64,000 nucleotides of DNA from Candidatus Hydrogenedens sp. (GTDB lineage Bacteria; Hydrogenedentota; Hydrogenedentia; Hydrogenedentales; Hydrogenedentaceae): contig JBMFRC010000012.1 in the NCBI GenBank assembly GCA_049968235.1, positions 1-64,000 of the forward strand. Direction: 5' to 3'. Under the pieces are notes generated by a model. It made no database searches. It was not told the DNA's origin and worked only from the letters and a program-made list of their open reading frames with translations. The translations under genes and the position numbers were made by a program. Below are positions 33,401 through 51,926 of the stretch, piece by piece. Numbering within the stretch: the stretch's first letter is position 1; each line of letters opens with the position of its first letter.

Positions 33401-34381
33401 TTAAATAAACATACCTATGACTTCAGCCATGCCTGCATTTACAGGAGGAGTTCCGGCACCAGTTGGGTTTAATGGGTCTTCCGCAACATAACGGATAAAT
33501 TCCACATGCCCATCCATATATAGAACATTGGAACCTCCGGGGATATGATTAAATCCTTCAGGTTTGGTAGAAACATGGTCAAGCATAATCCATACAGAAC
33601 TCTGCGCCTGTGCGGAAGATGCTGGATTATTAATATCTGTAATTAAGAATCTTTCAATACCTTCTCTTAGGCGATATACAGTACTACCACCACCATTACC
33701 ATTACCTGCCGTTACAGTTACATCCTTGTCAACAAGATTAGGCCATTGTGCAGGATTCGCAAAAACAGGAACGAGGGTATTTAGTGCAAGTTCAATAAAT
33801 TGACCGGGTCCGGTTACAGGCTGATTAATTAATGGAGGAACTGCAGGTAGTGTCATCGGATTGTCTGTAGTTTTAGCACGGTCTAAAACCCAGCCGATAT
33901 ATACATAACTTTCGTCTATTGCAGCAGCACCATAGTGTTCGTTAGTGCATAGCCAGCCTGCGGTGTTTTCTCCTGTTGCATCATTAGTAATATCTTTGAT
34001 TGTGCTTTGTGCATCGGATGGACAAAAAATTATTGCCGGATCAGTTAAATATTCCGGATACAAAGTCGTTAAATCGGGACCCATAGCAAGGAATACAGAC
34101 CTTTGAAAAGTGGTGTATGCTGGATTGGCAACATCACAATCTCTATAAATAGGTTGTGAGCCTTCCCTTACGAGAATTCTTGGGAATCTTTCACCTTTTG
34201 ATTCCCCACAATACATTTTGAACACTAATCCCCATTGCTTCAAGTTATTTTGACAACTTGACCTTCTTGCCGCTTCGCGAGCCCTTGCTAACGCAGGCAG
34301 TAAAATAGCAGCAAGAATTCCGATAATAGCAATGACGACTAACAATTCGATTAAAGTAAAACCTTTTTTACTTTTCTTCAT
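33401..34381 (-). CDS. Prepilin-type N-terminal cleavage/methylation domain protein of the DUF1559 / H-X9-DG-like family
   Basis: The N-terminus [45 protein letters not shown] is a class III signal (G|FTLIE). The C-terminus reads [17 protein letters not shown]. Confidence 0.8.
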
Positions 34382-35620: not shown

Positions 35621-37843
35621 TTATCTTACATATTGTTTTCTGATATGTAATGCAGAACAGAAAGTCATTACACATACAATTAATACAATTGTTAATGTTG
35701 AACTAACAGGAACTTCATCTGAAATGATAACATGAAATTCATAAGTAGCATTGGTTTTCTGTCCATCATCATATTCACAAATGTATATTCCTGTATCCTC
35801 AATTTGTGCGTTGGGAATCCAGAGGGAACGGCAATGAGTATTTAATCCTCTTTCTTCTAAACTACCATTTAGTTTGGACCAATTAAATGAAGAATTCATA
35901 GATACAGGTTCCGGAACACGCAAGCATATATCAGACCCTGCTTTGAAAATTCCGCCCAATGTTGAAGAAGAATGGCATTCTTCACAATCCGAACCGGGAT
36001 ATACAACAGGATTTAATGCAGAATTAATATATGCCTGTTTTTTCTCTTCATAACTCATATGTGAACGGACAAAATATTCATATTCCTGTTTATTTGTCCA
36101 GCCATCCCCATCCGCATCACCATCAGGACCGAAAAATTGAGGTAGAAGTTGATAGAAGGTAGGAACAATGATATTTACATGTATATTGAAACTGGGGTCT
36201 ATAGCCTGTGCTGCTATAGAAATTACAGTCGGTATCATCGTGGATTCTTGATTACCTAAGGTCATGTATCCTGCTAACATTTGTGGCAAACCATAAAATA
36301 TGGTATTTACGATACTTCCTTCACCACCACAGTCTGTAATCATTCGTTGCATGTTTTGGTTGAAAGCATTCACAGCAATTTGATGACTTATACCGCCATT
36401 GGCAGTAAAATCAATAGATGTATTGTTATAACATTCCGTGATAAGTGAAAATTCTAACGAATCTAACATGCCATTTCCGGAAATAACAATAGGGTCTATA
36501 GATATTTGTCCACCATTCAAATCACATTCTTCAGGACTAAACGAAAGTCCTTCTGCTCCCTGGTCTCCTAATAAAACATAATATGCACTTAAATTTTCAT
36601 GTAAATATTGCATACCTGCTACAATTTCATGGTCAGGTTGCCTTATAAAATCATGATACTCCCAAACGCCGTTATAACAAAAATCTCCATTGCCTTCTGT
36701 ATTTCCCGTGCCGGGTCCTCCTAATGGTTTTGAAGTGCTATCTACAATAGTATCATCATCAATTACACAAAGTGTAACATTTCCTACTGCCCCTGCAGTA
36801 TCTACAACCACATTGTAAACTTGATTACCCTGAACATTATTGACAGATAAGATAGAAAGGGGAGAGGATAAACTATCCTTTGCATTAAAATCAGATGTAT
36901 CAACATTAGAAACAGGTTCACTAAAAGTTACAGAAAAAGTCATTGTATTTCCGTTAGAAGAAATACTATTAATTAAATAAACTTTTGGATAATCCAACCA
37001 TTGACTAATGAATTCCGACATGCATCTCTGGGCTAATATTTTATAACCTGCTTGAGATAAATGTATATCCCCATCAAACAGTCCATCAGGATGAACTAAT
37101 GAACATGGGTCTCCTCCGGGAAAAGGTGTATAGGTGGGATAATTACCTGGATAAGGGACAGAATGAGGGGGCAAATTTGTGGGAGTTGATGTCCCAAAAT
37201 GATATTGCATTAACCCAAGATTATGAACATAATAAACTCGTGGCTTGCTATCTGCCAGAGCCTTTTTGGCTTGTTCAAATCTTACAAAAGCATTTTGCTG
37301 GTCACATATTGAACAACCACCACGGTCTCTGCCTGCAAAAGTATATCCACAAAGAGCAACGCGAATATCGGGACGAACTGAAAGAATTTCATCAATAATA
37401 CCACTCATATAATTTACAATCGTATTAATAATGTATTCTTCCTGGGATGGATTAGAAAGCATATCACAATTCCAACGAGATGTTTGTGGAGTTCCTCGAA
37501 GGAAATCATTTCCTCCTAATGTTATCAATACAATATCAATTGTAGGATATTTTGCTAATTCTTCCTTTACATTTTGAATATAATTATATTCTTCAGGGTA
37601 AAATTCAAATGCTCGTGCTCCCATAATAGCAGTACGACTACCTATCTCTCTTAAATGTTCCATTCCAGGTGTTTCGTTAAAAATTTCTTTAAAGGTTCTA
37701 AATGCCCACATAAAACCAGTCCAACTATCACCGACTAATAGAACCCGTGGAATTTCCTCTTGAGAAAATGCAACAGAACTATCTATGAGAATAAGTAAAG
37801 ATAAGAAACAAATCAAGAATAAACTTAAAATACTATGTTTCAT
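35621..37843 (-). CDS. Secreted SGNH/GDSL-family hydrolase with Ig-like C-terminal domains and a C-terminal TM anchor
   Basis: It has a signal peptide. The SGNH blocks are block I LLVGDSWT, block II ITLGGNDF and block V DGDIHLS. An acidic Ca-type loop (DGDADGDGWTNKQE) and a C-terminal hydrophobic helix are present. Confidence 0.7.
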   Translation of the reverse strand: MKHSILSLFLICFLSLLILIDSSVAFSQEEIPRVLLVGDSWTGFMWAFRTFKEIFNETPGMEHLREIGSRTAIMGARAFEFYPEEYNYIQNVKEELAKYPTIDIVLITLGGNDFLRGTPQTSRWNCDMLSNPSQEEYIINTIVNYMSGIIDEILSVRPDIRVALCGYTFAGRDRGGCSICDQQNAFVRFEQAKKALADSKPRVYYVHNLGLMQYHFGTSTPTNLPPHSVPYPGNYPTYTPFPGGDPCSLVHPDGLFDGDIHLSQAGYKILAQRCMSEFISQWLDYPKVYLINSISSNGNTMTFSVTFSEPVSNVDTSDFNAKDSLSSPLSILSVNNVQGNQVYNVVVDTAGAVGNVTLCVIDDDTIVDSTSKPLGGPGTGNTEGNGDFCYNGVWEYHDFIRQPDHEIVAGMQYLHENLSAYYVLLGDQGAEGLSFSPEECDLNGGQISIDPIVISGNGMLDSLEFSLITECYNNTSIDFTANGGISHQIAVNAFNQNMQRMITDCGGEGSIVNTIFYGLPQMLAGYMTLGNQESTMIPTVISIAAQAIDPSFNIHVNIIVPTFYQLLPQFFGPDGDADGDGWTNKQEYEYFVRSHMSYEEKKQAYINSALNPVVYPGSDCEECHSSSTLGGIFKAGSDICLRVPEPVSMNSSFNWSKLNGSLEERGLNTHCRSLWIPNAQIEDTGIYICEYDDGQKTNATYEFHVIISDEVPVSSTLTIVLIVCVMTFCSALHIRKQYVR

Positions 37844-37993
37844 TTTTGTCTCCTTTTTATTTATGTTATGTAATAAAAAACAATAATTAAACTAAATAAA
37901 TTATAGCAATAAAAAAAGAAAAAAATCAATAAAATATACTTAAGAGATATTTTTTTAATAAAAGAAAAAATTTTAATGAAAAGTATTTTAAAT

Positions 37994-38022
37994 TTGACAA
38001 GGAGTAAACAGTGTGCTATAAT
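37994..38022 (+). promoter_or_regulatory. Consensus sigma70 promoter, TTGACA - 17 nt - (TGc)TATAAT, upstream of rex
   Basis: TTGACA lies at 37994-37999 and TATAAT at 38017-38022. The TG of the extended -10 is at 38014-38015. Confidence 0.65.
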
Positions 38023-38084
38023 TTGTTCATAAATTCACAATTATACTTACAGGTAAGTATATAAATTTGTTTGTAAATTCACAA
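38023..38084 (+). promoter_or_regulatory. Two direct-repeat Rex-box-like operators (TTGTTCATAAATTCACAA and TTGTTTGTAAATTCACAA) flanking a perfect 7-2-7 palindrome TACTTACAGGTAAGTA
   Basis: The boxes are at 38023-38040 and 38067-38084. Each has a perfect TTCACAA right half-site and a degenerate left half-site, compared with the Rex consensus TTGTGAAnnnnTTCACAA. Box 1 abuts the -10 element. Confidence 0.55.
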
Positions 38085-38101
38085 TTAAAAGTATAAAGTA
38101 T

Positions 38102-38797
38102 ATGGTATCTGAGAAAACAGTAGAAAGATTAAGTTTATACCGCCGAATACTTCAACAATTGAGGGTCGAGAGTAAAGAAACTATAATGTCCCATGAACTT
38201 GCGAATATGTTACACATAAAGCCAGCACAGGTACGCAGGGATATTATGCAATTAGGTTATTCAGGAATACCTAATAGTGGTTATAGAATTCGACCTCTTT
38301 TAGAGAGTATTGCAAATTTTTTAGATTCCCCGTTGCCTCAGAGTGCTGTTTTAGTAGGTGTTGGACATTTAGGACTTGCGTTATTGGCTAACTTTGCAGG
38401 ACGATGGAGGCAATTAGCTATTCGTGCCTCTTTTGATAAAGACCCTGCAAAAGTAGGACAGACTTTTCATGGTTGTCGTTGTTATGCTATGTGTGATTTG
38501 CAAAAAGTAATTGCGGAGACAAAAAGTGTAGTAGGCATCCTGGCAATACCGGGTGAAAGTGCCCAATCTGTTTGTGACCTTCTTGTTCAGTCAGGTATTA
38601 GTGGCGTATTAAATTTTTCCCCATTGCGAATTAAAGTGCCTGATAATGTCTTTATAGAACATGTTGACCTTTCCGCTACGTTTGAAAAAGTTTCGTTCTT
38701 TGCAAGAAGAATGAAACATTATGCAGAAGAAGAAAAACGGAAAGTAGAAAATGAAATTACTGAGGGTGAATACGAAACATTAACAACCAATCAATAA
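38102..38797 (+). CDS. rex: Redox-sensing transcriptional repressor Rex
   Basis: The N-terminal winged helix reads TVERLSLYRRIL. The Rossmann fold reads AVLVGVGHLGLALL, and a C-terminal swap helix is present. Confidence 0.85.
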   Translation: MVSEKTVERLSLYRRILQQLRVESKETIMSHELANMLHIKPAQVRRDIMQLGYSGIPNSGYRIRPLLESIANFLDSPLPQSAVLVGVGHLGLALLANFAGRWRQLAIRASFDKDPAKVGQTFHGCRCYAMCDLQKVIAETKSVVGILAIPGESAQSVCDLLVQSGISGVLNFSPLRIKVPDNVFIEHVDLSATFEKVSFFARRMKHYAEEEKRKVENEITEGEYETLTTNQ

Positions 38798-38823
38798 ATA
38801 AAAAATTTTGTAGGAGATAGAAT

Positions 38824-39348
38824 ATGAATGAAGAATCAAAGCATGCGTGTATGGAAGAAGCAAGTGAAGAAGAACTGCTTGCTCGGCTTGATGAAGTAAT
38901 TGCAGAATATAAGGACAAGCCCGGTGCTCTTATTCCTGTTCTGCAGATTGCTCAGGCTATGTTTGGTTATCTACCCGAAAGTGCATTAAAAAAGATTAGT
39001 TTGGGACTGAACAAACCGTATAGTGAAGTTGCAGGTGTGGTAACATTTTACTCATTCTTTTCAACCCAGCCTCGTGGAAAACATATGATTCGTGTCTGTT
39101 TAGGAACTGCTTGTTATGTCCGTGGTGGCAAACAGGTTCTTTCTGCAATTAAGGATAAACTCCATATTGATGTTGGAGAGACCACGAAAGACCGTATGTT
39201 CTCTTTAGAGGTGGCTCGTTGTTTTGGTGCTTGTGGGCTTGCTCCTGCCATTATGGTGGATAACGATGTGCATCAACGGGTAAAACCTGCCCGAATTCAG
39301 GCTATTTTAGACCAGTATTTAGACAAAAACACAGAAAAAAATAAATAA
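38824..39348 (+). CDS. hndA: NuoE-like [2Fe-2S] subunit of an NAD(P)-linked [FeFe]-hydrogenase (HndA / HydC-like)
   Basis: It has a thioredoxin-like fold with 2Fe-2S Cys ligands (CLGTACYVRG...CFGACGLAP). It is ~174 aa, and its RBS is AGGAGA. Confidence 0.82.
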   Translation: MNEESKHACMEEASEEELLARLDEVIAEYKDKPGALIPVLQIAQAMFGYLPESALKKISLGLNKPYSEVAGVVTFYSFFSTQPRGKHMIRVCLGTACYVRGGKQVLSAIKDKLHIDVGETTKDRMFSLEVARCFGACGLAPAIMVDNDVHQRVKPARIQAILDQYLDKNTEKNK

Positions 39349-39370
39349 GAAATAAATAAGGAGAAAAGCC

Positions 39371-39742
39371 ATGTCAAATATTATTCATTCTCCAGAAGAC
39401 CTTAATGCTTTACGAGAAAAGGCAATTAAGGACATTGAGATTCGTAATTCACATAAAGATTTGGTGATTACTGTTCACATGGGAACATGTGGTATTGCTG
39501 CGGGTGCCAGAGAAGTATTAAAAAATATCATCTCTGAAATTTCTGCTATAGGTATAACCAATGTTACAGTCCGTCAATCTGGATGTGCAGGTCTCTGCGA
39601 CCGTGAACCCATGATTACGGTTACTCATAAATCCTCCGGTTCTGAATATCGTTATGGAAAATTAAACACGGAAAAGATACGAGAAATTGTGAAACAGCAT
39701 ATTGCAGAAGGTAAACCTGTGATGGAATATTTAATTTCCTGA
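39371..39742 (+). CDS. hndB: Small thioredoxin-like [2Fe-2S] ferredoxin subunit (HndB-like)
   Basis: The 2Fe-2S ligand motifs are HMGTCGIAAGA and SGCAGLCDREPM. It is 123 aa, and its RBS is AAGGAGA. Confidence 0.72.
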   Translation: MSNIIHSPEDLNALREKAIKDIEIRNSHKDLVITVHMGTCGIAAGAREVLKNIISEISAIGITNVTVRQSGCAGLCDREPMITVTHKSSGSEYRYGKLNTEKIREIVKQHIAEGKPVMEYLIS

Positions 39743-39825
39743 TGAAGAAATACAGGGTAAATTCGGATTCCCATAAAGTGGTTGAGATGAACATGTATAG
39801 CAAAATAAGAAAGAATGATATAGAA

Positions 39826-41271
39826 ATGAAAATGAACATATTACATCTATTTCTTATTTTATTTTTATGTTCATCCGCAACCTTTACTGAAATATCTGAT
39901 TGGGAAACCATCTCACTTTCGGATACAGGAGAAGCATTACAAAATCCCGGCATGGGATGGGTATTACATTTTTACGATAATGTTCCTGAAAATTATGGTT
40001 CTAAATTAGCCCCTTCAGATACTGTTGATGAATTCCCTGCCCTTTCAGTTATTTATTTGCGAATAGCATGGTCGTTTTTAGAACCTGAAGAAGGAAAGTA
40101 TAACTGGTCTATATTGGATACTCCTTCTCAACGATGGATTTCTAAAGGGAAACAAATTGCTTTGCGCATTACCTGTAGTGAAACTCCTATTCCATGGGCG
40201 ACACCAAAATGGGTTTATGAAGCAGGAGCCAAAGGTAATTTCTTCATTCCTACCCAGGGGATAAAAGAAAATGGGACACATTGGGAACCCGAATTTGATG
40301 ACCCTGTTTTCTTGGATAAGTTGGATAATTTTTTAGCAGTGTTAGCAAAGAGATATGATGAAAATCCGGAAATAGCCTTCATAGATATGGGTTCATTAGG
40401 AGTGTGGGGAGAAGGTCATGTATGGCATTCCACACAAAAACATATTTCGACGGAAACCATAAAAAAACACATTGATTTGCACATAAAGCACTTTAAAAAC
40501 ACAATAATTGCTCTAAATGATGACCTTATCACAAATGGGCAAAAATTGGATGTAATTCCCGAAGAGAAAAAAGAACTCCTCAATTATGCTATCAAAAATG
40601 GGTTAACACTTCGCGATGATAGTATTCTTGTTCAGGGTGGAGATAATGTATATTTTAGTGCAAGCCTTGCGGAATACTTCTGGCGAAATAGACCTATCAT
40701 TTTAGAATCTGAACATTATGGACCATCAAAGGCTGAAAGGCATTGGGGGGACGGAAGTAAATATTTACAGGCTGTAGAAGATTACCATGCAAGTTATACT
40801 TCTATTCATTGGTGGCCAAGGGAGTTTTTACAAGAAAACAAAGATTTGATAGATAAAATCAATCTTCGTTTGGGGTATCGTATTGTCCCTACCGAAGTTA
40901 AATGGCAAAAGACAGTAAAAATATCCGAGAAAAAATGGGATATATCCTACCGTTGGGCAAATAAAGGAGTGGCACCTTGTTATCGGGATGTATATCCCAT
41001 TATTACATGGAAAGATGAGAAAGGAGGAATTGTTGCTGTTTTTACAGATGAGACATTTAATCTCAAACAATTACCAATAGGGAAGCAGGATGAATTAAAA
41101 GAAATTGAGGTAAAAAAATCTTTTTTTATTCCTTTTTTATTGAAAGAAGGAAATTATACAGTATTCATTTCAGCGGGTTCTATTACGGGCACGCCTGAAA
41201 TTCAATTACCGTTAAACAACACAGACCATGAAAAAAGATATGTTATAGGTAAAGTTAATGTTGTTTTGTGA
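39826..41271 (+). CDS. Secreted clan GH-A TIM-barrel glycoside-hydrolase-like protein (GH42/GH35-like N-terminal signature). The tracked ORF begins at 39742; the start at 39826 gives a clean signal peptide.
   Basis: The signal peptide is MKMNILHLFLILFLCSSATF. NPGMGW is present. IAWSFLEPEEGKYNW resembles the GH42 signature AWSxxEPxEGxY. MGSLGVWGEGHVWHS is also present. Confidence 0.55.
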   Translation: MKMNILHLFLILFLCSSATFTEISDWETISLSDTGEALQNPGMGWVLHFYDNVPENYGSKLAPSDTVDEFPALSVIYLRIAWSFLEPEEGKYNWSILDTPSQRWISKGKQIALRITCSETPIPWATPKWVYEAGAKGNFFIPTQGIKENGTHWEPEFDDPVFLDKLDNFLAVLAKRYDENPEIAFIDMGSLGVWGEGHVWHSTQKHISTETIKKHIDLHIKHFKNTIIALNDDLITNGQKLDVIPEEKKELLNYAIKNGLTLRDDSILVQGGDNVYFSASLAEYFWRNRPIILESEHYGPSKAERHWGDGSKYLQAVEDYHASYTSIHWWPREFLQENKDLIDKINLRLGYRIVPTEVKWQKTVKISEKKWDISYRWANKGVAPCYRDVYPIITWKDEKGGIVAVFTDETFNLKQLPIGKQDELKEIEVKKSFFIPFLLKEGNYTVFISAGSITGTPEIQLPLNNTDHEKRYVIGKVNVVL

Positions 41272-41342
41272 AAAAAAATATAAAGATATAAATAAAAACT
41301 TCAGAAATGAAGCATACACAAGTTATGGAAAGGAGAAAAAAA

Positions 41343-44300
41343 ATGAGTCCATTTCGAAGTCATGTATTAATCTGTGCAGGTGCAGGATGCGTGGCATCAG
41401 GTTCGATGGAAGTAAGTTCCGCCTTTTCGGAGGCACTTGCCAAACATGGGCTAAATGAAGAAATTCAAGTAGTCCATACAGGATGTTTAGGACCCTGTGC
41501 TATTGGTCCCGTGGTCGTGATTTATCCAGATGCTATTTTTTATCAAGGTGTTAAAACAACAGATGTTGAAGATATTGTTGTTGAGCATCTGTTAAAAGGT
41601 CGGCCTGTTAGTCGCTTGAATTTCAAATCTACTACCACATCACAAATTATTCCTGCACTGCAGGAGATTGGTTTTTTCAAGCAACAGACAAAGATAGTTT
41701 TAAGGAACTGTGGTATTATAGACCCTACAAAAATTGAGGAGTATATTGCGAGAGATGGGTATCAGGCTTTAGCAAAAGTACTGACAAAAATGACTCCACA
41801 GCAGGTAGTAGAAGAAGTGAAAAAATCTGGACTTCGGGGAAGAGGTGGTGCAGGATTCCCAACAGGTATAAAGTGGGAGTTAACTCAAAAAGCCCACGGA
41901 GATAAGAAATATGTTCTTTGTAATGCTGATGAAGGTGACCCGGGCGCATTTATGGACAGAAGTGTTTTGGAAGGTGACCCCCATAGTGTTATTGAAGCTA
42001 TGATTATAGCAGGATATGCCATTGGTTCTGACCAGGGATATATTTATGTTCGAGCAGAATATCCTTTAGCGGTAGAGAGATTAAATATAGCGATAAAGCA
42101 AGCCAGAGAATATGGTTTGTTAGGTAAGAATATTATGGGAACGAATTTTAATTTCGACCTTGAAATACGAATGGGTTCAGGTGCTTTTGTGTGTGGAGAA
42201 GAAACCGCATTGATGCGTTCTATCGAAGGGAAACGCGGAGAACCCAGACCCCGTCCACCGTTCCCTGCATATAAAGGTTTATGGGAAAAACCCAGTTTAT
42301 TAAATAATGTAGAAACCTATGCAAACATCCCTGTAATTATATTAAAAGGTGCTGATTGGTTTGCTTCCATAGGAACAGGTAAAAGTAAAGGAACAAAAGT
42401 GTTTGCCTTAGCAGGTGCTGTAAACAACACAGGATTGGTCGAAATTCCGATTGGTACACCATTAGGTGAAATTATTTATGATATTGGCGGTGGAATTCCG
42501 CGAGGCAAACAATTTAAGGCAGCGCAAATTGGAGGTCCTTCCGGCGGTTGTATTCCAAAACAACATCTGAATGTGCCGGTAGATTACGAGTCATTACAGG
42601 AATTAGGAGCGATTATGGGTTCCGGTGGATTAATTGTTATGGATGAAGACACATGTATGGTCGATATGGCTCGTTTCTTCCTTGACTTTGTTCAGGATGA
42701 GTCATGTGGAAAATGTGTCCCATGCCGGGTCGGAACGAAAAGAATGTTGGAAATTGTGACAAGGATTTGTGAGGGTCGGGGAGAAGAAGGCGATATTGAA
42801 AAACTTATTGAATTAGGACAACAGATTAAAGATGCATCGTTATGTGGATTAGGGCAGACAGCTCCAAACCCTGTTCTTTCTGCAATACGGCACTTCCGTG
42901 ATGAATTTGAAATTCATATTCGTGAACATAAATGTCCGGCGGGTGTCTGTCCATCTCTTGTTCGTGCTCCTTGTATGAGTGCTTGCCCGGCAAATGTTTA
43001 CATTCCGGGTTTTGTCTCATTAATATCTGAAAAACGATATGCGGAAGCACTTCGTGTGCATCGTGACCAGAACCCCTTTGCATCTGTATGTGCCCGTGTG
43101 TGTTTCCATACTTGTGAGGACAAATGTAGAAGAGCTACTCTGGATGAAGCGGTATCCATACGCGGATTGAAGCGATTTATGGTAGAGCAAGAAGTTACAA
43201 TACAACTACCTGAAATTCGTGAAAATGAACAAAATCTTCGCAAAAAGGTGGCTATTATAGGAGCAGGTCCTGCAGGTCTAACCTGTGCTTATTTCCTTGC
43301 ACGATTAGGCTATCAACCCCGTGTTTTTGAATCTGCACCCAGGCCCGGCGGTATGTTAGTTCAAACAATTCCCGCTTATCGGTTACCCCGAGAAGAATTG
43401 GCTCGAGAAATTCGTATGATAGAAAGAATGGGCGTTGTCATAGAAACTGAAAAAGCCTTAGGTCGTGATTTTACATTACAAAGCCTTCGTGATGATGGAT
43501 ATGAGGCTATTTTTCTCGGAATAGGTGCTCCATCAGGTCAAAAATTGAGAATTCCAGGCGAAGATGCGGATGGCGTTGTCGAAGCCATAGACTTCCTTCG
43601 TGAATACAATCTCCGTGGTTCTGTTCCTGTAGGGAAAAATGTTGTTATTATAGGAGGTGGTAATGCAGCTATTGATGCGGCAAGAACTGCCATTCGTTTA
43701 GGAGCAAAAAAAGCAACGATTCTTTACCGCAGAACAAGAGAAGAGATGCCTGCGTATAAAGAAGAGATCGAAGAAGCAGTTAATGAAGGTGTTATTTTAA
43801 AAATGTTAGTAACTCCACTGGAGATTTTGACAGAAAACGGAAAAGTTGTTGGTGTAAAATGTCAACACATGTGGTTAGGAGAATATGACCGTTCCGGTAG
43901 AAGAAGACCTGAAGCCAAAAAGGGTGAAGAACCCTTTGTTGAAGAAGCAGACCAGGTTATTGCAGCAATAGGGCAAACTGTTGATTTAAAACGTTACCTG
44001 GATGGATTAAATGTTAAGTTAACACCTTCTGGTTTCTTGTGGGTAGACCAATTATATGGTCAGACCTCTATTGAATGGTTATTTGCAGGTGGTGATATTA
44101 GTTCAGGTCCTTCTTCCGTAGCAGAAGCAATCGGTGCTGGTGAAAGAGCTGCAGTTGGAATTGATAAGTATCTTACTGGAGAAGAACATGCTTTCTGGCG
44201 CGAACCCTATATGGTAGATACAGAATTTGACCCAGATTCCGACCCGGTAGATTTCCCAAGAGCAAAAATGAAACTTTTACCTGTTGAAAAGAGGGTACAC

Positions 44301-44414
44301 AACTTTAATGAAGTTGAAATCCCGTTTACGGAAACATTAGCGGTAAGAGAGGCACGCCGTTGCTTACGTTGTGATTATCGTGAAACAAAAATAAGTTTAA
44401 ATACACAACAATAA
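41343..44414 (+). CDS. hndC: NuoF-like flavoprotein subunit (HndC-like) fused to a C-terminal GltD/NfnB-like NAD(P)H oxidoreductase. The tracked ORF starts at 41307; the RBS-supported start is 41343.
   Basis: The N-terminal thioredoxin-like 2Fe-2S domain reads LICAGAGCVASG...CLGPCAIGP. The NuoF core carries GRGGAGFPTGIKW and ESCGKCVPCRVGT. A 2x[4Fe-4S] region follows, then the GltD-like part: CARVCFHTCEDKCRR, FAD GxGxxG (AIIGAGPAGLTCAYFLA) and NAD(P) GxGxxA (VVIIGGGNAAIDAAR). AAGGAG lies 7 nt before the 41343 ATG. Confidence 0.85.
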   Translation: MSPFRSHVLICAGAGCVASGSMEVSSAFSEALAKHGLNEEIQVVHTGCLGPCAIGPVVVIYPDAIFYQGVKTTDVEDIVVEHLLKGRPVSRLNFKSTTTSQIIPALQEIGFFKQQTKIVLRNCGIIDPTKIEEYIARDGYQALAKVLTKMTPQQVVEEVKKSGLRGRGGAGFPTGIKWELTQKAHGDKKYVLCNADEGDPGAFMDRSVLEGDPHSVIEAMIIAGYAIGSDQGYIYVRAEYPLAVERLNIAIKQAREYGLLGKNIMGTNFNFDLEIRMGSGAFVCGEETALMRSIEGKRGEPRPRPPFPAYKGLWEKPSLLNNVETYANIPVIILKGADWFASIGTGKSKGTKVFALAGAVNNTGLVEIPIGTPLGEIIYDIGGGIPRGKQFKAAQIGGPSGGCIPKQHLNVPVDYESLQELGAIMGSGGLIVMDEDTCMVDMARFFLDFVQDESCGKCVPCRVGTKRMLEIVTRICEGRGEEGDIEKLIELGQQIKDASLCGLGQTAPNPVLSAIRHFRDEFEIHIREHKCPAGVCPSLVRAPCMSACPANVYIPGFVSLISEKRYAEALRVHRDQNPFASVCARVCFHTCEDKCRRATLDEAVSIRGLKRFMVEQEVTIQLPEIRENEQNLRKKVAIIGAGPAGLTCAYFLARLGYQPRVFESAPRPGGMLVQTIPAYRLPREELAREIRMIERMGVVIETEKALGRDFTLQSLRDDGYEAIFLGIGAPSGQKLRIPGEDADGVVEAIDFLREYNLRGSVPVGKNVVIIGGGNAAIDAARTAIRLGAKKATILYRRTREEMPAYKEEIEEAVNEGVILKMLVTPLEILTENGKVVGVKCQHMWLGEYDRSGRRRPEAKKGEEPFVEEADQVIAAIGQTVDLKRYLDGLNVKLTPSGFLWVDQLYGQTSIEWLFAGGDISSGPSSVAEAIGAGERAAVGIDKYLTGEEHAFWREPYMVDTEFDPDSDPVDFPRAKMKLLPVEKRVHNFNEVEIPFTETLAVREARRCLRCDYRETKISLNTQQ

Positions 44415-44431
44415 TAAAAGGAGAATAAGCC

Positions 44432-46204
44432 ATGCCAAAATTAACTATAGATGGAATTCCCGTAGAAGTTCCGGAAGGAACAACAATACTTCAAGCGGCA
44501 AAGCAAATAGGATTAAAAATACCGACACTTTGTTATCTTGAAGAAGTTCAAGCCATCGGTGCCTGTCGTGTTTGCGTTGTTGAAGTTGAAGGAGCACGAA
44601 CTTTGGTCGCTTCTTGTGTTGCTCCTGTTGCGGAAGGAATGAAAGTCCATACAAATTCAAAAAGAGCCCGTGAGGCACGAAAAACAGTTGTAGAATTGTT
44701 ACTATCCGACCATGATGGCGATTGCCAGATTTGTGTTCGAAATGAAGATTGTGAACTTCAGGAATTGGCACGAACACTTGGGATAAAGGAAATTCGCTAT
44801 CAAGGTGAGAAGAGAAAACGGATTGTGGATGAAAGCACTCCCGCTGTTGTTCGTGATACATCGAAATGTGTCTTATGTAGAAGATGTATAACGGTTTGCA
44901 ATGAGGTTCAGGGTGTTGGCGGACTGTTCCCACAAAATCGTGGCTTTGAAACGGTAATAGGTCCCGCATTTTGTAGTGATTTGGATGATGTCGTATGTGT
45001 TCAGTGTGGTCAATGTAGTGCGGTTTGTCCTGTGGGTGCTATTGTAGAAAGAGACCAGATTGCGGATGTCTTTTCTGCATTAGATGACCCGACAAAAACA
45101 GTCGTTGTCCAGACAGCCCCTGCAATTCGTGCCGCATTGGGAGAATGTTTTGGTTTACCACCCGGAACTTTAGTAACAGGGAAGATGGTTACCGCACTTC
45201 GTAGACTGGGTTTCCATGCCGTTTTTGATACTAACTTTGCCGCTGACCTTTGTATTATGGAAGAAGGTACAGAACTGCTAACTCGATTGAAGAAAAAACT
45301 GGTAGATGGGGAGAATATTGCTCTTCCTATGTTTACCAGTTGTTCTCCGGGGTGGATTAAGTTTTTAGAACATTTCTACCCGGATATGATTCCAAATGTA
45401 TCTACATGCAAATCCCCACAGCAAATGTTTGGTGCTATAGCAAAGACCTATTATTCCAAGAAAATTGGTAAGAAACCCGAAGATATTGTTGTTGTTTCTA
45501 TTATGCCCTGTACAGCGAAGAAATATGAACATCAGCGTCCCGAGATGAACAGTTCCGGTGTTCGTGATGTGGACTATGTGCTTACAACGCGTGAATTGGG
45601 TCGGATGATAAAACAGGCAGGCATTGATTTTGTAAATCTACCCGATGACAAGCAAGACTCACCATTAGGACTATCCTCTGGTGCTGCGGATATTTTTGCG
45701 AATACCGGGGGTGTTATGGAAGCGGCAATTCGAACTGTTTATGAAATAGTAACAGGACGCGAATTACCATTCGATGGACTTCATGTTGCTCCTATCGAAG
45801 GATTAGAAGGAATCAAGGAAGCCTCCTTGAAGATAGAAAAATGTGTGCCTGAATGGTCTTTCTTAGAAGGGGCTACCGTAAATGTTGCTGTGGCTCATGG
45901 ATTGGGTAATGCCAGAGCATTAATAGAGCGAGTTCGCTCAGGTGAAAAGGCGTATCACTTTATAGAAATTATGACCTGTCCCGGTGGATGTATTGGTGGA
46001 GGAGGACAACCTCGCTTTACAGATAATTCAGTTCGTCTTGCTCGTATTCAGGCCATATACAAAGAGGATGAAGGGAAACAACTTCGTAAGTCCCATGTAA
46101 ATCCTGACATACAAAAATTGTATAAGGAATTTTTAGGACATCCGAATAGTGAAGTTTCACATCATCTATTACATACGCATTACAATCCGAGAACAAAAGT
46201 ATAA
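44432..46204 (+). CDS. hndD: [FeFe]-hydrogenase catalytic subunit, M3 architecture (HndD/HydA-like), with non-canonical L1 motif TSCSPGW
   Basis: It has an N-terminal 2Fe-2S domain, a His-ligated 4Fe-4S (HDGDCQICVRNEDC) and two ferredoxin-like 4Fe-4S clusters. The H-cluster motifs are L2 MPCTAKKYE and L3 EIMTCPGGCIGG. The L1 motif reads FTSCSPGW. Confidence 0.88.
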   Translation: MPKLTIDGIPVEVPEGTTILQAAKQIGLKIPTLCYLEEVQAIGACRVCVVEVEGARTLVASCVAPVAEGMKVHTNSKRAREARKTVVELLLSDHDGDCQICVRNEDCELQELARTLGIKEIRYQGEKRKRIVDESTPAVVRDTSKCVLCRRCITVCNEVQGVGGLFPQNRGFETVIGPAFCSDLDDVVCVQCGQCSAVCPVGAIVERDQIADVFSALDDPTKTVVVQTAPAIRAALGECFGLPPGTLVTGKMVTALRRLGFHAVFDTNFAADLCIMEEGTELLTRLKKKLVDGENIALPMFTSCSPGWIKFLEHFYPDMIPNVSTCKSPQQMFGAIAKTYYSKKIGKKPEDIVVVSIMPCTAKKYEHQRPEMNSSGVRDVDYVLTTRELGRMIKQAGIDFVNLPDDKQDSPLGLSSGAADIFANTGGVMEAAIRTVYEIVTGRELPFDGLHVAPIEGLEGIKEASLKIEKCVPEWSFLEGATVNVAVAHGLGNARALIERVRSGEKAYHFIEIMTCPGGCIGGGGQPRFTDNSVRLARIQAIYKEDEGKQLRKSHVNPDIQKLYKEFLGHPNSEVSHHLLHTHYNPRTKV

Positions 46205-46223
46205 GATAAGATTTAATAATAAA

Positions 46224-46247
46224 GGGGAGTGTGAGTGAGCACTCCCC
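46224..46247 (+). terminator. Stable hairpin after hndD: 8-bp GC-rich stem GGGGAGTG / CACTCCCC with an 8-nt loop and no U-tract
   Basis: It lies 20 nt downstream of the hndD stop. It may be a partial terminator or an RNA-stability element. Confidence 0.4.
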
Positions 46248-46329
46248 ATACAATCCTATGAAGTTGTATAATAGGAATATAGGTAGGAGTAAGTAGGTTT
46301 ATGAGTGTCTAATATTTAGGAAAGAAAAA

Positions 46330-46725
46330 ATGGAAAATAAAATTATAATGGTCGTTGATGATGATATTGATGTTCAGGATTTCTGTAAAATTGTATTAGG
46401 AAGAGAGGATTATCAGGTTATAACATTTTCCAACTCAGAGAGTGCACTCGAATATTTATCGTCGAACACTCCCTCTGTAATTATTACCGATTTAATGATG
46501 GGTGGAATTGATGAGGGTGTCCAATTTGTTAATAAGATTAGAGGATTCGATAATGAGAAGGCAAAAATTCCAATTATAATGATTACAGGCATAAATTCAA
46601 AATTAGGATATGACATCACTCCCCGTTCCGATGAAGAAAAAAAACAAATGAAAATCGATGAATTTATATCAAAACCTTTAAATCCAAAACAGTTAATAAC
46701 AGCACTAAAAAAAGTAATCAAATAG
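46330..46725 (+). CDS. Stand-alone response-regulator receiver (REC) domain protein
   Basis: The acidic pocket reads VVDDD. The phospho-acceptor Asp lies in VIITDLMM, and a conserved Lys is present. It is 131 aa with no output domain. Confidence 0.8.
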   Translation: MENKIIMVVDDDIDVQDFCKIVLGREDYQVITFSNSESALEYLSSNTPSVIITDLMMGGIDEGVQFVNKIRGFDNEKAKIPIIMITGINSKLGYDITPRSDEEKKQMKIDEFISKPLNPKQLITALKKVIK

Positions 46726-46777
46726 AAATTTGTTTCGTATAGATACTGTTTAATTTATAAATATAAGGAAATGAGTT

Positions 46778-48175
46778 ATGAGTTCAAATGTAGAAACTGT
46801 TCCTATTAATGAGGAATTTATTTTTGATACTTTAAAAAATAGTGTCAAGAAAGATGCGGTTTACATCAAAGAAATTCTTGCAAAAGCCCTTGAATTAAAG
46901 GGATTAGATGCGACAGAAGTAGCCACGCTTGCAACAATAAGTGACCCTGACCTGTTAAAAGAACTTTTCGATACAGCCCGAAAAGTCAAAGAGGAGATTT
47001 ACGGTAAACGATTAGTTCTTTTTGCCCCACTTTATGTATCAAATCTTTGCAAGAATGAATGCTTATATTGTGCTTTCCGTAAAAGTAACAAGATGGTTCG
47101 TAGAAAAGCATTGACACAAGAAGAAGTCCGTAGAGAGGTTGAAACATTGGTTGACCAGGGGCATAAACGCATTCTATTAGTGGCAGGCGAGTCCTATCCT
47201 TCCGAAGGATTTGATTATGTTATTCATTGTATCGAAACAATATATAGTGTAAAGCGGGATAGGGGAGAGATACGACGCGTAAATGTGAATATAGCACCCT
47301 TATCGTTAGAGGAATTTAAAAGGCTGAAATCAGCAAAAATTGGGACATATCAGTTATTTCAAGAAACATACCACAGAGAAACATACCAAAAAGTCCATGT
47401 AGGTGGACTTAAAAAGGATTTTGACTGGAGAATTACCGCTATGGACCGTGCTATGAAAGCTGGCATTGATGATGTGGGTGTTGGCGTTCTTTTTGGCTTA
47501 TTTGATTGGAGATTTGAAATACTTGCTTTAATGCAACATATTAAACATTTAGAAGATACCTTCGGTGTAGGATGTCACACGATAAGTGTACCTCGCCTTG
47601 AACCTGCTATAGGTTCAGACCTGGCTTCACATCCCCCTTATCCGGTATCAGACCTTGATTTCAGAAAAATTGTAGCTATACTAAGACTTGCTGTGCCCTA
47701 TACAGGAATAATAATGTCCACTCGTGAAACTCCCAATATACGAAGAGAAACCTTTGCACTGGGTGTATCACAAATATCAGCAGGCAGTAGAACGAATCCA
47801 GGTGGGTATACAGGCAGTGAAGAAGAGGATATGAGCCAATTCTCATTAGGTGACCATCGCAGTCTGGATGAGGTTATTCGTGATGTTACAAAATTAGGTT
47901 ATATCCCATCCTTCTGCACGGCTTGTTATCGTTTAGGCAGAACAGGTGCTGACTTTATGGACCTTGCCAAGCCGGGTCTTATCAAGAACCATTGTGAAGT
48001 TAATGCTTTAAGCACTTTTGCTGAATATCTGGAAGATTATGCATCCTCCGAAACAAAACAAATAGGTTGGGCAAAGATTGAGGAAATTTTAAATACAATG
48101 CCTGAAGTTCGGAAAAAACGTACCGAAGGGATGTTGGCTCGTGTAAAAGCCGGTGAACGGGATGTATATGTGTAA
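46778..48175 (+). CDS. hydG: [FeFe]-hydrogenase maturase HydG (radical SAM tyrosine lyase, ThiH-like)
   Basis: The radical SAM motif is CKNECLYC. The ~465 aa length and a C-terminal auxiliary-cluster Cys motif (FCTACYRLGRTG) fit HydG. It sits in the hyd cluster. Confidence 0.85.
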   Translation: MSSNVETVPINEEFIFDTLKNSVKKDAVYIKEILAKALELKGLDATEVATLATISDPDLLKELFDTARKVKEEIYGKRLVLFAPLYVSNLCKNECLYCAFRKSNKMVRRKALTQEEVRREVETLVDQGHKRILLVAGESYPSEGFDYVIHCIETIYSVKRDRGEIRRVNVNIAPLSLEEFKRLKSAKIGTYQLFQETYHRETYQKVHVGGLKKDFDWRITAMDRAMKAGIDDVGVGVLFGLFDWRFEILALMQHIKHLEDTFGVGCHTISVPRLEPAIGSDLASHPPYPVSDLDFRKIVAILRLAVPYTGIIMSTRETPNIRRETFALGVSQISAGSRTNPGGYTGSEEEDMSQFSLGDHRSLDEVIRDVTKLGYIPSFCTACYRLGRTGADFMDLAKPGLIKNHCEVNALSTFAEYLEDYASSETKQIGWAKIEEILNTMPEVRKKRTEGMLARVKAGERDVYV

Positions 48176-50873: not shown

Positions 50874-51926
50874 ATGGATAAAAAAAATATTATTAATTGG
50901 CTTCGTGAAAAAAACGAAGATAAATTAAACGAACTATGGGAATTGGCGGATTCTATCCGCAGTAAATATGTAGGAGAAGAGGTGCATCTTCGAGGTTTGA
51001 TAGAAATATCAAACTATTGCAAAAAAAACTGTCTATACTGTGGAATACGAATTTCTAATAGAAAATTAACCCGATATAGAATGGAAGACAGCGAGATTTT
51101 GGAATGTGTGGAATTTGCCAAAAGAAATGGCTATGGAACAATAGTCCTTCAATCCGGCGAAGACCCCGATTTTACAAAAGAAAAAATCGCCGAATTAATT
51201 AGAAAAATAAAAGAAAATGCAAATGTGGCTATTACATTAAGTTTAGGAGAGCAGGAAAAACACACATTAGAATTATGGAAATCTGCCGGAGCCAATCGTT
51301 ATCTTCTTCGTTTTGAAACCTCAGATGAAATCCTATTTAAAAGAATCCATTCGTCAGAACAAGCAAAAAGTTTAGAGAATAGAATTAAACAACTAAAAAT
51401 ACTTAAACAATTAGGCTACGAAGCAGGAAGTGGGATAATGATTGGAATACCCTATCAAACTTATGAAAGCATCGCTAATGATATCCTACTTTTCAAACAA
51501 TTAGACCTTGATATGATAGGAATAGGACCATACATTCCTCATCCCGATACACCTTTAGGACAGGAATATCTTAATAAATATAAAAAAGATGATGAAAAAT
51601 TTGTCCCAAACACAGAATTAATGACATATAAAGTCCTTGCATTAACCCGAATTATATGTCCAACCGTAAACATTCCTGCCACCACTGCCCTTGCAACTGT
51701 GAATACACGAGAAGGTCGCATTTTAGCCCTGAAGAGGGGAGCCAATGTTATCATGCCGAATCTCACTCCACCAAAATATAAAAAATTGTATGAAATTTAT
51801 CCAGGTAAATCGTCTGCTGATGAACCTCCAGAAATTATTCATCAAAGTATAATGAAGATTATAGAAAAGGCAGGAAGAAAAGTAGGAACAGGGATGGGAA
51901 ATCGCAAAAAAATCATAGATATTTAA
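50874..51926 (+). CDS. hydE: [FeFe]-hydrogenase maturase HydE (radical SAM, BioB-like)
   Basis: The radical SAM motif is CKKNCLYC. It is ~350 aa, and the TIM-barrel radical SAM core resembles BioB/HydE. Confidence 0.85.
   Translation: MDKKNIINWLREKNEDKLNELWELADSIRSKYVGEEVHLRGLIEISNYCKKNCLYCGIRISNRKLTRYRMEDSEILECVEFAKRNGYGTIVLQSGEDPDFTKEKIAELIRKIKENANVAITLSLGEQEKHTLELWKSAGANRYLLRFETSDEILFKRIHSSEQAKSLENRIKQLKILKQLGYEAGSGIMIGIPYQTYESIANDILLFKQLDLDMIGIGPYIPHPDTPLGQEYLNKYKKDDEKFVPNTELMTYKVLALTRIICPTVNIPATTALATVNTREGRILALKRGANVIMPNLTPPKYKKLYEIYPGKSSADEPPEIIHQSIMKIIEKAGRKVGTGMGNRKKIIDI

What the first reader, a model, noticed from the sequence alone, without database searches (positions are those of the whole stretch)
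39742..41271. Secreted GH-A-clan glycosidase-like gene inserted between hndB and hndC inside the hydrogenase operon
An ORF encoding a signal peptide plus a TIM-barrel glycoside-hydrolase-like protein sits with almost no spacing between the ferredoxin-like and NuoF-like hydrogenase subunits. Its motifs are NPGMGW and AWSFLEPEEGKYNW. Its start overlaps the hndB stop, and hndC follows about 70 nt downstream. A periplasmic or extracellular carbohydrate-active protein has no obvious role in a cytoplasmic NAD(P)-linked hydrogenase. It could be a recent insertion that split the operon, with an internal promoter before hndC. Alternatively it could be a co-regulated fermentative glycosidase.
Basis: seen in the sequence. 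Interest (0 to 1): 0.58.

Follow-up and report, generated by a model that had tools for sequence, protein, structure and literature searches.

The report
Secreted glycosidase gene inside hydrogenase operon
A gene for an exported sugar-cleaving enzyme of an almost unstudied family really does sit between two subunit genes of a cytoplasmic hydrogen-producing enzyme, but it is an old, conserved passenger of that operon in one group of uncultured bacteria (Candidatus Hydrogenedens), not a recent insertion and not a hydrogenase part.

Summary
The ORF at 39742-41271 (+) is real and both quoted motifs are present. It encodes an exported two-domain protein: a TIM-barrel glycosidase fold plus a C-terminal DUF4832 beta-sandwich. 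The barrel has invariant Glu residues after beta4 and on beta7. The protein belongs to a large, highly conserved, biochemically uncharacterised family.

The true start is probably 39787 or 39826, so the overlap with the hndB stop codon is likely an artefact of taking the longest ORF.

The flanking genes form a Rex-controlled "sub-type I BfuABCD" [FeFe]-hydrogenase operon: rex, hydC, hndB, GH, hydB(NuoF-GltD), hydA.

The "recent insertion" reading is refuted. Seven distinct low-GC Hydrogenedens-type lineages carry the gene at the same spot, with hydB at least 90% identical and the GH only 64-80% identical. Its GC and codon usage are native, and dN/dS is about 0.07-0.17. All 155 assessable related operons lack it, including the nearest relatives with hydB at 85% and 79% identity.

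I found no conserved internal promoter, terminator or RNA element, and no repeat scars. The gene is most likely co-transcribed from the Rex-gated promoter and acts outside the cell. The substrate is unknown. The only tested analogue is Streptococcus intermedius SIR_1591, which degrades the Pel exopolysaccharide.

This is a modest curiosity.

The parts
37994..38022 (+). Sigma-70-type promoter (TTGACA, 17 nt, TATAAT, with an extended TG) upstream of rex. It is the only strong promoter-like site found for the operon.
   Evidence: It matches the consensus 12 of 12. The same -35/-10 pair is conserved in L002, L004, L007, L010, L011 and L046.
38023..38040 (+). Rex-like operator 1 (TTGTTCATAAATTCACAA), immediately downstream of the -10 box.
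   Evidence: It is conserved in the orthologous leaders. Actual Rex binding is inferred from the known Rex consensus TTGTGAA-N4-TTCACAA (my own knowledge).
38042..38061 (+). Conserved 20-nt palindrome TATACTTACAGGTAAGTATA between the two Rex-like boxes. Its function is unknown.
   Evidence: Related palindromes occur in the leaders of the insert-free relatives L094 and L179. As RNA it is not unusually stable (z = -0.9).
38067..38084 (+). Rex-like operator 2 (TTGTTTGTAAATTCACAA).
38102..38797 (+). rex, the redox-sensing repressor. It is the first gene of the transcription unit.
   Evidence: Pfam Put_DNA-bind_N + CoA_binding. It holds the same position in all orthologous loci.
38824..39348 (+). 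hydC/bfuC, the NuoE-like 2Fe-2S subunit.
   Evidence: Pfam 2Fe-2S_thioredx, E 2e-51. NCBIfam NuoE/HoxE models also match.
39371..39742 (+). hndB/bfuD, a small 2Fe-2S thioredoxin-like ferredoxin subunit.
   Evidence: Pfam 2Fe-2S_thioredx, E 3e-5. NCBIfam 2Fe-2S ferredoxin models match below their cut-offs.
39742..41271 (+). The exported DUF4832-family glycoside-hydrolase-like gene. This is the longest ORF; the probable start is 39787 (Met16) or 39826 (Met29, NCBI's call). Numbering from Met29: signal-like N-terminus, residues 1-22; TIM barrel, about 40-350; beta-sandwich, 353-480. The candidate catalytic residues are Glu196 (WGEGH) and Glu294 (ILESEHYG).
41272..41342 (+). A-rich GH-hydB spacer. 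Only the AAGGAG Shine-Dalgarno sequence and the ATG are conserved. No promoter-like or terminator-like site was found.
41343..44414 (+). hydB/bfuB: NuoF-like FMN/NADH module fused to a GltD-like DPD_II + FAD/NAD(P)-binding module. The ORF extends up to 41307.
   Evidence: This is the 'sub-type I BfuB' architecture described in PMC11406978.
44432..46204 (+). hydA/bfuA, the [FeFe]-hydrogenase catalytic subunit.
   Evidence: Pfam Fe_hyd_lg_C, E 1e-98. NCBIfam FeFe_hydrog_A6 scores 907 bits against a cut-off of 765.

Best explanation
The ORF is a functional gene for an exported two-domain enzyme. It has a (beta/alpha)8 glycosidase barrel with a Glu after strand 4 and a Glu on strand 7, followed by a C-terminal DUF4832 beta-sandwich. 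It belongs to a widespread, usually free-standing family.

In an ancestor of a low-GC Candidatus Hydrogenedens clade, one copy landed in the roughly 45-nt spacer between hndB (bfuD) and hydB (bfuB). That spacer lies within a Rex-controlled, sub-type I BfuABCD electron-bifurcating [FeFe]-hydrogenase operon. The copy has been inherited vertically under purifying selection ever since.

The spacers on both sides are short and unstructured, with no detectable promoter or terminator. The gene is therefore most probably transcribed as part of the rex-hydC-hndB-GH-hydB-hydA message. That message starts at a promoter gated by two Rex-like operators, so expression should rise with the NADH/NAD+ ratio during fermentative growth.

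The product is exported and cleaves an extracellular or periplasmic glycan. It is not a hydrogenase subunit or maturation factor. Its link to the hydrogenase is regulatory and historical, not physical.

Shown: gene, fold, conservation, insertion polarity, age, and absence elsewhere. Inferred: co-transcription, Rex control, export, and hydrolytic activity. Unknown: the substrate.
For: Gene and fold:
- Pfam Glyco_hydro_42 and DUF4832 both match above their cut-offs.
- The AF2 model has pLDDT 90.6 and shows an eight-stranded barrel plus a beta-sandwich.
- 52 family members share more than 100 invariant columns, including Glu196 and Glu294. All have a hydrophobic N-terminus.

Age and polarity of the insertion:
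- The same rex-hydC-hndB-GH-hydB-hydA order occurs in L001-L012 and L046, with the GH 64-80% identical and hydB 90-96% identical.
- The operon-borne copies are monophyletic in a neighbour-joining tree.
- GC is 0.356, GC3 is 0.282, and the codon-usage distance is the lowest of 34 genes in the window.
- dN/dS is 0.07-0.17, against 0.013-0.035 for hydB.
- The gene is absent from 74 of 75 assessable genome loci and from 79 of 79 assessable metagenome loci.
- The nearest relatives also lack it: L178 (hydB 85%) and L179 (79%). There hndB and hydB are 44-48 nt apart.

Transcription:
- There is a perfect TTGACA-17-TATAAT promoter with two Rex-like boxes, conserved across the orthologues.
- No promoter-like or terminator-like site lies in 39743-39825 or 41272-41342.
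- Only the Shine-Dalgarno sequence and the ATG are conserved in the downstream spacer.
- There is no Rfam match and no stable RNA fold.

Activity by analogy:
- S. intermedius SIR_1591 has the same architecture and the same beta-amylase/beta-galactosidase fold neighbours. It is an active extracellular glycoside hydrolase that dissolves Pel aggregates (PMC12345266).
Against: - There are no transcript data. A weak, non-conserved TTGTGA-16-TATAAA can be read by eye at 41265-41292, so an internal start in this particular strain cannot be excluded.
- The promoter scan covers only sigma-70-type consensus sites.
- Export rests on the look of the N-terminus and on family-wide conservation. No signal-peptide predictor was available, and the start codon is ambiguous (39742, 39787 or 39826).
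- No enzyme of this exact subfamily has been assayed.
- The usual clan GH-A Asn-Glu acid/base motif is Gly-Glu here.
- In other phyla the family has no conserved neighbourhood that would point to a substrate.
- No Pel-type biosynthesis genes were seen in the window.
- Retention over this evolutionary depth, inside an operon, could reflect a functional tie that I cannot see.
Confidence: 0.72

Rival explanations
1. A recent insertion split the operon, and hydB-hydA are now expressed from a new internal promoter in the 71-nt spacer.
For: The gene is absent from all related operons outside this clade. The spacer is AT-rich. A weak -35/-10-like pair (TTGTGA, 16 nt, TATAAA) can be read at 41265-41292.
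Against: Recency is refuted. Seven divergent lineages share the insert, dS is saturated, and composition and codon usage are native. There are no flanking repeats or mobile-element remnants. The scan found no promoter-like site in the spacer. Nothing upstream of the Shine-Dalgarno sequence is conserved among seven orthologous spacers. No terminator follows the GH.
Confidence: 0.07
2. This reading proposes genuine functional coupling. The hydrolase is kept in the operon because releasing sugars, or remodelling or dispersing an extracellular matrix, must be timed with H2-producing, NADH-disposing metabolism. One example would be in syntrophic flocs.
For: The position has been retained under purifying selection across deep divergence. 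The operon carries conserved Rex-like operators. The only assayed DUF4832-type enzyme dissolves an aggregate-forming exopolysaccharide.
Against: The association arose once. None of the 155 other assessable related operons has it. Family members in other phyla sit in unrelated, variable neighbourhoods. Conservation of position is also expected for any useful gene trapped between essential co-transcribed genes. No matrix-synthesis genes lie nearby.
Confidence: 0.15
3. In this reading the protein is not a glycosidase. It would be a TIM-barrel accessory, cofactor or maturation protein of the hydrogenase, or an extra subunit.
For: The only support is its position between subunit genes. TIM barrels do occur among maturation enzymes.
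Against: The hydrophobic signal-like N-terminus is conserved family-wide. No Fe-S, flavin or radical-SAM family matches the protein. All of the best structural neighbours listed, at least the top 50, are glycosidases or closely related carbohydrate-active proteins. Invariant Glu residues sit at the canonical positions. The operon copies retain every family-invariant residue of the free-standing homologues. The gene is absent from 155 related operons, which presumably mature normally. The dedicated maturases HydG, HydF and HydE are encoded downstream.
Confidence: 0.03
4. In this reading the gene is a neutral or decaying hitchhiker. It would persist only because deleting it would disturb expression of the downstream hydrogenase genes.
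For: It evolves several times faster than its neighbours: 64-80% identity against 90-96% for hydB, and dN/dS up to 0.165. It has weak or no Shine-Dalgarno sequences.
Against: The reading frame is intact in every lineage. dN/dS of 0.07-0.17 indicates clear purifying selection, similar to hndB and rex. All the family-invariant columns, more than 100 of them, are retained, including both candidate catalytic Glu residues.
Confidence: 0.03

Closest known systems
Streptococcus intermedius SIR_1591, the DUF4832-containing glycoside hydrolase of Gram-positive pel loci (PMC12345266; PMC7112168)
   Same: The architecture is the same: an N-terminal hydrophobic export or anchor segment, a short N-terminal strand that joins the C-terminal sandwich, a TIM barrel of about 300 residues, and a C-terminal DUF4832 beta-sandwich. 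The barrel's nearest solved folds are beta-amylases and beta-galactosidases in both cases. Both proteins are predicted to act outside the cytoplasm.
   Different: SIR_1591 lies in or next to a pel exopolysaccharide operon and was shown to dissolve Pel aggregates. The window protein lies in a hydrogenase operon, with no pel genes seen in the 64 kb. The shared substrate is therefore only a lead.
GH42 and GH35 beta-galactosidases (clan GH-A) and GH14 beta-amylases
   Different: Sequence identity is only 8-16%. Only about a quarter of the GH42 profile is matched (positions 32-131 of 376). There is no GH42 trimerisation or C-terminal domain. The acid/base context is Gly-Glu-Gly-His rather than Asn-Glu. 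The protein is not a member of any of these families on the evidence here.
Sub-type I BfuABC(D) electron-bifurcating [FeFe]-hydrogenase gene clusters of Hydrogenedentota (Zheng & Huang 2024, PMC11406978)
   Same: The flanking genes are this system: BfuC (NuoE-like), BfuD (HndB-like), BfuB with DPD_II + FAD/NAD(P) domains, and BfuA. The organism is Candidatus Hydrogenedens.
   Different: The published description gives the order as C-(D)-B-A. It marks other genes only as 'X' in a figure legend. Neither the text nor the searchable supplements mention a glycosidase or DUF4832 gene. Here a secreted glycosidase gene sits between D and B.

Membership tests
Pfam DUF4832 (PF16116) family | A match to the DUF4832 profile above the gathering score, forming a C-terminal beta-sandwich after a TIM barrel. 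| tested here: met
   The score is 39.3 bits against a cut-off of 29.2, over residues 356-477 of the 509-aa ORF. The beta-sandwich spans residues 353-480 in the AF2 model. NCBI names the identical protein 'DUF4832 domain-containing protein'.
CAZy/Pfam GH42 beta-galactosidase | A full-length match of the catalytic barrel to the GH42 profile. | tested here: not met
   Only profile positions 32-131 of 376 are matched (33.1 bits). PDB GH42 chains match at E about 0.01, over roughly 100 residues only.
CAZy/Pfam GH42 beta-galactosidase | The GH42 middle (trimerisation) domain and the C-terminal domain. | tested here: not met
   There is no Glyco_hydro_42M or 42C hit. The C-terminal domain is DUF4832 instead.
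CAZy/Pfam GH42 beta-galactosidase | An Asn-Glu acid/base motif after strand 4 (from my knowledge of clan GH-A). | tested here: not met
   The invariant motif is W-G-E-G-H.
Clan GH-A-type (beta/alpha)8 retaining glycosidase | An eight-stranded barrel with a catalytic Glu after strand 4 and a Glu at the end of strand 7. | tested here: inconclusive
SIR_1591-type Pel-degrading hydrolase | Domain architecture: an export or anchor segment, a beta-amylase/beta-galactosidase-like barrel, and a DUF4832 sandwich. | tested here: met
   compared with the description in PMC12345266.
SIR_1591-type Pel-degrading hydrolase | Significant direct sequence similarity to SIR_1591. | not testable with these tools
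   The SIR_1591 sequence is not obtainable here, and no solved structure exists.
SIR_1591-type Pel-degrading hydrolase | Location in or next to a pel (pelDEADAFG-type) locus. | tested here: not met
   No pel-type genes were found among the 34 large ORFs of the window. The neighbours are hydrogenase genes.
SIR_1591-type Pel-degrading hydrolase | Hydrolysis or dispersal of Pel polysaccharide. | not testable with these tools
   This needs purified enzyme and substrate.
HydABC/BfuABC(D) hydrogenase subunit or maturase | Fe-S, flavin or radical-SAM binding domains and a cytoplasmic location. | tested here: not met
   There are no such Pfam or NCBIfam hits. The hydrophobic signal-like N-terminus is conserved across the family.
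HydABC/BfuABC(D) hydrogenase subunit or maturase | Presence in orthologous hydrogenase operons of other lineages. | tested here: not met
   It is absent from 74 of 75 assessable genome loci and 79 of 79 assessable metagenome loci, and from L178 and L179.
Rex regulon (operon-level membership) | A Rex operator (TTGTGAA-N4-TTCACAA-like) at the promoter of the transcription unit, with a rex gene present. | tested here: met
   Two 18-nt boxes lie at 38023-38040 and 38067-38084, next to a 12-of-12 promoter. They are conserved in the orthologues, and rex is the first gene. Binding and co-transcription of the GH were not tested.

The most novel reading that the evidence does not exclude
The clade may have wired an extracellular matrix-glycan hydrolase to its redox sensor. 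When NADH accumulates, for example because H2 builds up in a syntrophic floc, Rex releases the promoter. The cell then makes the NAD(P)H/ferredoxin-linked hydrogenase and secretes an enzyme that loosens or digests a Pel-like exopolysaccharide. This would couple H2 metabolism to aggregate remodelling, dispersal or substrate release.
Probability: 0.1. Interest if true: 0.6.

Novelty: new variant of a known kind. Interest (0 to 1): 0.3.

Why it matters
The finding shows that a tightly packed operon for a multisubunit cytoplasmic redox enzyme can tolerate an unrelated exported-enzyme gene between two subunit genes. It has then fixed that gene across at least seven divergent lineages (dS saturated between most). 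This is a clean, datable case of a gene being captured by an operon.

It also offers a natural handle on the large DUF4832-type glycosidase family, which is highly conserved and essentially uncharacterised. The search here returned 2776 hits at E ≤ 0.001 from the 8000 candidates scored, and identity across phyla is 53-63%. In Candidatus Hydrogenedens, expression of this gene should track a predictable signal: Rex, responding to the NADH/NAD+ ratio.

If the coupling is adaptive, it would link H2 metabolism with glycan or matrix turnover in anaerobic digesters. If it is not, the arrangement is an annotation curiosity. It should still be flagged so that the gene is not mistaken for a hydrogenase component.

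Tried and rejected
- Recent horizontal insertion is rejected. GC, GC3 and codon usage are native, seven lineages share the insert, and there are no flanking direct or inverted repeats beyond AT-rich chance matches.
- An internal promoter or terminator: the consensus scan found nothing in either spacer, and the alignment of seven GH-hydB spacers conserves only the Shine-Dalgarno sequence and the ATG.
- An RNA element in the spacers or leader: no Rfam match at E ≤ 1 over 37800-46800, and fold z-scores lie between -0.9 and +0.4.
- Rex boxes inside the operon: none lie next to the GH or hydB. A loose genome-wide pattern search was at chance level, with 50 matches against 48.7 expected. Only the two promoter-proximal boxes are meaningful, because they are conserved.
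- Inferring a substrate from gene neighbourhoods of family members in Armatimonadota and Planctomycetota: the contexts are variable and uninformative.
- A lipoprotein signal: the Cys in LFLC is not conserved in the orthologues and the lipobox is atypical.
- P0026 as a paralogue in the same genome: rejected. Its contig has GC 0.59 against 0.39, so assembly GCA_017880035.1 is mixed.
- Literature searches for PF16116, PF16173 and IPR032267 found nothing; a search for DUF4874 found one paper, which was not followed up.
- The afdb50 fold library was unavailable.
- The Hydrogenedentota hydrogenase paper does not discuss the gene.
Full report
**Observation**

An open reading frame runs from 39742 to 41271 on the + strand and encodes 509 aa. 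Both quoted motifs are present: NPGMGW and AWSFLEPEEGKYNW.

The flanking genes, in order, are as follows:
- rex, 38102-38797
- a NuoE-like hydC, 38824-39348
- a 123-aa HndB-like 2Fe-2S gene, 39371-39742
- the ORF in question
- a NuoF-like gene fused to a GltD-like DPD_II + FAD/NAD(P) module, with its likely start at 41343 and its end at 44414
- the [FeFe]-hydrogenase catalytic subunit hydA, 44432-46204

Further downstream lie a response regulator, hydG, an aspartase/fumarase-like gene, hydF and hydE.

The ATG at 39742 overlaps the hndB TGA, but it is probably not the start that is used. NCBI annotates the identical protein as 481 aa, starting at 39826 (P0001). The starts of the closest orthologues align with Met16 at 39787. 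That leaves a 44-nt gap, like the 43 nt in L002.

**What the protein is**

Pfam matches a partial Glyco_hydro_42 region and a C-terminal DUF4832 domain, both above their gathering scores. NCBIfam has no model for it. PDB sequences match only weakly, over about 100 residues of GH42 enzymes.

A search of the 5.8-billion-protein collection returned 2776 proteins at E ≤ 0.001 among the 8000 candidates scored. The identical sequence is labelled Candidatus Hydrogenedens sp. Members from Armatimonadota, Planctomycetota, Poribacteria and Sumerlaeia are 53-63% identical.

An alignment of 52 members has more than 100 invariant columns, and every sequence has a hydrophobic N-terminus.

AlphaFold2 on this alignment gave a confident model with pLDDT 90.6. 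It shows an N-terminal helix of low confidence, a (beta/alpha)8 barrel, and a C-terminal beta-sandwich. Invariant Glu196 (WGEGH) follows barrel strand 4. Invariant Glu294 (ILESEHYG) lies on strand 7.

The literature held here contains no biochemical study of this subfamily. There is one clear analogue, Streptococcus intermedius SIR_1591. It has an N-terminal membrane or export segment, a TIM barrel whose fold neighbours are beta-amylases and beta-galactosidases, and a DUF4832 sandwich. The purified protein dissolves Pel-dependent aggregates (PMC12345266). DUF4832 genes are recurrent accessory genes of Gram-positive pel loci (PMC7112168).

**Is it an insertion, and how old is it?**

The same rex-hydC-hndB-GH-hydB-hydA order occurs in every contig that carries a close GH homologue and that I could examine:
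- L001, identical to the window
- L002 and L003, with the GH 80% identical
- L004 to L006, 71%
- L007 to L009, 71%
- L010, 65%
- L011 and L012, 64%
- L046, a Hydrogenedentota MAG, 64%

In these loci hydB is 90-96% identical and hydA 84-96%. All have GC of 0.36-0.40. The operon-borne copies form one clade in a neighbour-joining tree. The sister group is a set of high-GC copies that are not linked to hydrogenases.

Relatives of hydB from other lineages lack the gene:
- 74 of 75 assessable loci from one-genome-per-species contigs. The largest gap between the upstream subunit gene and hydB is 642 nt.
- 79 of 79 assessable metagenome loci. The largest gap is 334 nt.
- The two nearest relatives I could find, L178 (hydB 85% identical, GC 0.60) and L179 (79%, GC 0.50). 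Both have rex-hydC-hndB, then 44-48 nt, then hydB-hydA. Their leaders contain a Rex-like box and a palindrome related to the window's.

The gene therefore entered the hndB-hydB spacer of about 45 nt once. This happened after the split from the lineages with 79-85% hydB identity and before the radiation of those with at least 90%.

Other evidence also argues against a recent event:
- GC is 0.356, GC3 is 0.282, and the codon-usage distance of 0.045 is the lowest of 34 genes in the window.
- Synonymous sites are saturated between most lineages.
- dN/dS is 0.07-0.17. That is higher than hydB (0.013-0.035) but similar to hndB and rex.
- No repeats or mobile-element remnants flank the gene.

**How it is probably expressed**

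A 12-of-12 sigma-70-type promoter lies at 37994-38022. It is followed by two 18-nt Rex-like boxes at 38023-38040 and 38067-38084, which flank a 20-nt palindrome. This whole leader is conserved in the orthologous loci.

Neither spacer around the GH gene contains a promoter-like or terminator-like site, a stable RNA fold or an Rfam match. Among seven orthologous GH-hydB spacers, only AAGGAG and the ATG are invariant. The hndB-GH gap varies from 13 to 83 nt between called starts.

The simplest reading is one Rex-gated transcript that includes the GH gene. This is an inference, since no transcript data were available. A weak, non-conserved -35/-10-like pair at 41265-41292 prevents complete exclusion of an internal start.

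**Mechanism proposed**

The product is exported and hydrolyses a glycan outside the cytoplasm. It is made whenever the hydrogenase operon is derepressed, that is, when the NADH/NAD+ ratio is high. It is not a hydrogenase component, for four reasons:
- It has no cofactor-binding motifs.
- It carries a signal-like N-terminus.
- It keeps every invariant residue of its free-standing relatives.
- It is absent from 155 related operons.

I cannot tell whether the co-expression is adaptive or just an accident of where a useful gene landed. Adaptive possibilities include sugar release for fermentation and matrix remodelling in flocs. The association arose only once, and family members elsewhere have no consistent neighbours. 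Both facts favour historical accident plus ordinary selection on the enzyme.

**Comparison with what is known**

The hydrogenase is the 'sub-type I BfuABC(D)' cluster catalogued for Hydrogenedentota by Zheng and Huang (PMC11406978). That paper mentions non-Bfu genes only as 'X' in a figure legend. Neither its text nor its searchable supplements name a glycosidase or DUF4832 gene.

The enzyme is an ordinary member of the DUF4832-type family. It is not a GH42 member: the profile match is partial, the GH42 accessory domains are missing, and the motif is Gly-Glu rather than Asn-Glu.

**Verdict**

The protein-level interpretation is right. The 'recent insertion that split the operon' interpretation is wrong. 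The gene is an old, clade-specific passenger in a known hydrogenase operon, probably co-transcribed with it.

The interest is modest at 0.3. The finding is useful as an example of operon capture and as an entry point to an unstudied glycosidase family. The most novel reading not excluded is redox-gated secretion of a matrix hydrolase, to which I give about 10%.

Noticed in passing
window 38042-38061; also L002, L004, L007, L010, L011, L046, L094, L179 leaders: A 20-nt perfect palindrome, TATACTTACAGGTAAGTATA, sits between the two Rex-like operators in the operon leader. Related palindromes occur in the leaders of the insert-free, high-GC relatives (L094: TATACCTAACGGTAGGTAA; L179: GACTTACTTACCGGTAAGTC). 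It could be a second regulator's binding site. As RNA it is not unusually stable (z = -0.9).
   Followed up: partly
window 48181-49602 (+), between hydG (46778-48175) and hydF (49612-50865); hydE is at 50874-51926: An aspartate ammonia-lyase/fumarase-class gene (Lyase_1 + FumaraseC_C) is embedded among the [FeFe]-hydrogenase maturase genes. It is also present after hydG in L002, L003 and L004. In L010 and L011, hydF follows hydG directly. This is a second 'non-hydrogenase' gene in the cluster. It may be relevant to supplying nitrogen for the H-cluster bridging ligand, but that idea is my speculation.
   Followed up: no
window 46330-46725 (+): A stand-alone response-regulator receiver protein of 131 aa, with no output domain, lies between hydA and hydG. 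It is conserved at this position in L002-L006, L010 and L011. L007-L009 have a GFO/IDH/MocA oxidoreductase there instead.
   Followed up: no
window 46224-46247: A G+C-rich hairpin (GGGGAGTGTGAGTGAGCACTCCCC) lies 20 nt after the hydA stop. The T-run is on the minus-strand side only, so the scan calls it a minus-strand terminator. It may still end or stabilise the plus-strand hydrogenase transcript.
   Followed up: no
window 41343-44414 (+): The NuoF-like subunit is fused to a GltD-like DPD_II 4Fe-4S domain and an FAD/NAD(P)-binding domain. It also carries an N-terminal 2Fe-2S thioredoxin-like domain. This is the 'sub-type I BfuB' that PMC11406978 proposes may hold a second, FAD-based bifurcation centre.
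   Followed up: partly
window 35621-37843 (-), transcribed divergently from the operon promoter: A 740-aa protein has a signal-like N-terminus and a weak SGNH/GDSL-hydrolase match. Its C-terminal half has no family assignment. It is conserved at this position next to rex in L002, L004, L007 and L011. It may share the AT-rich intergenic control region with the hydrogenase operon.
   Followed up: no
window 27893-30715 (+): A 940-aa protein is built from many EF-hand calcium-binding repeats (EF-hand_7, E 2e-60). This is unusual for bacteria. It is conserved in synteny in L004 and L007.
   Followed up: no
L011 versus L013 (both from assembly GCA_017880035.1): Two long contigs of the same deposited assembly have GC of 0.39 and 0.59 and carry different DUF4832 homologues. 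The assembly is evidently a mixture of organisms, so it should not be used to infer paralogy.
   Followed up: partly
window 56968-59769 (+) and 33401-34381 (-): Other glycan- or envelope-related genes lie nearby. One is a GH38 alpha-mannosidase-like protein of 933 aa. The other is a DUF1559/prepilin-type N-terminal methylation protein, typical of PVC-like and candidate phyla.
   Followed up: no
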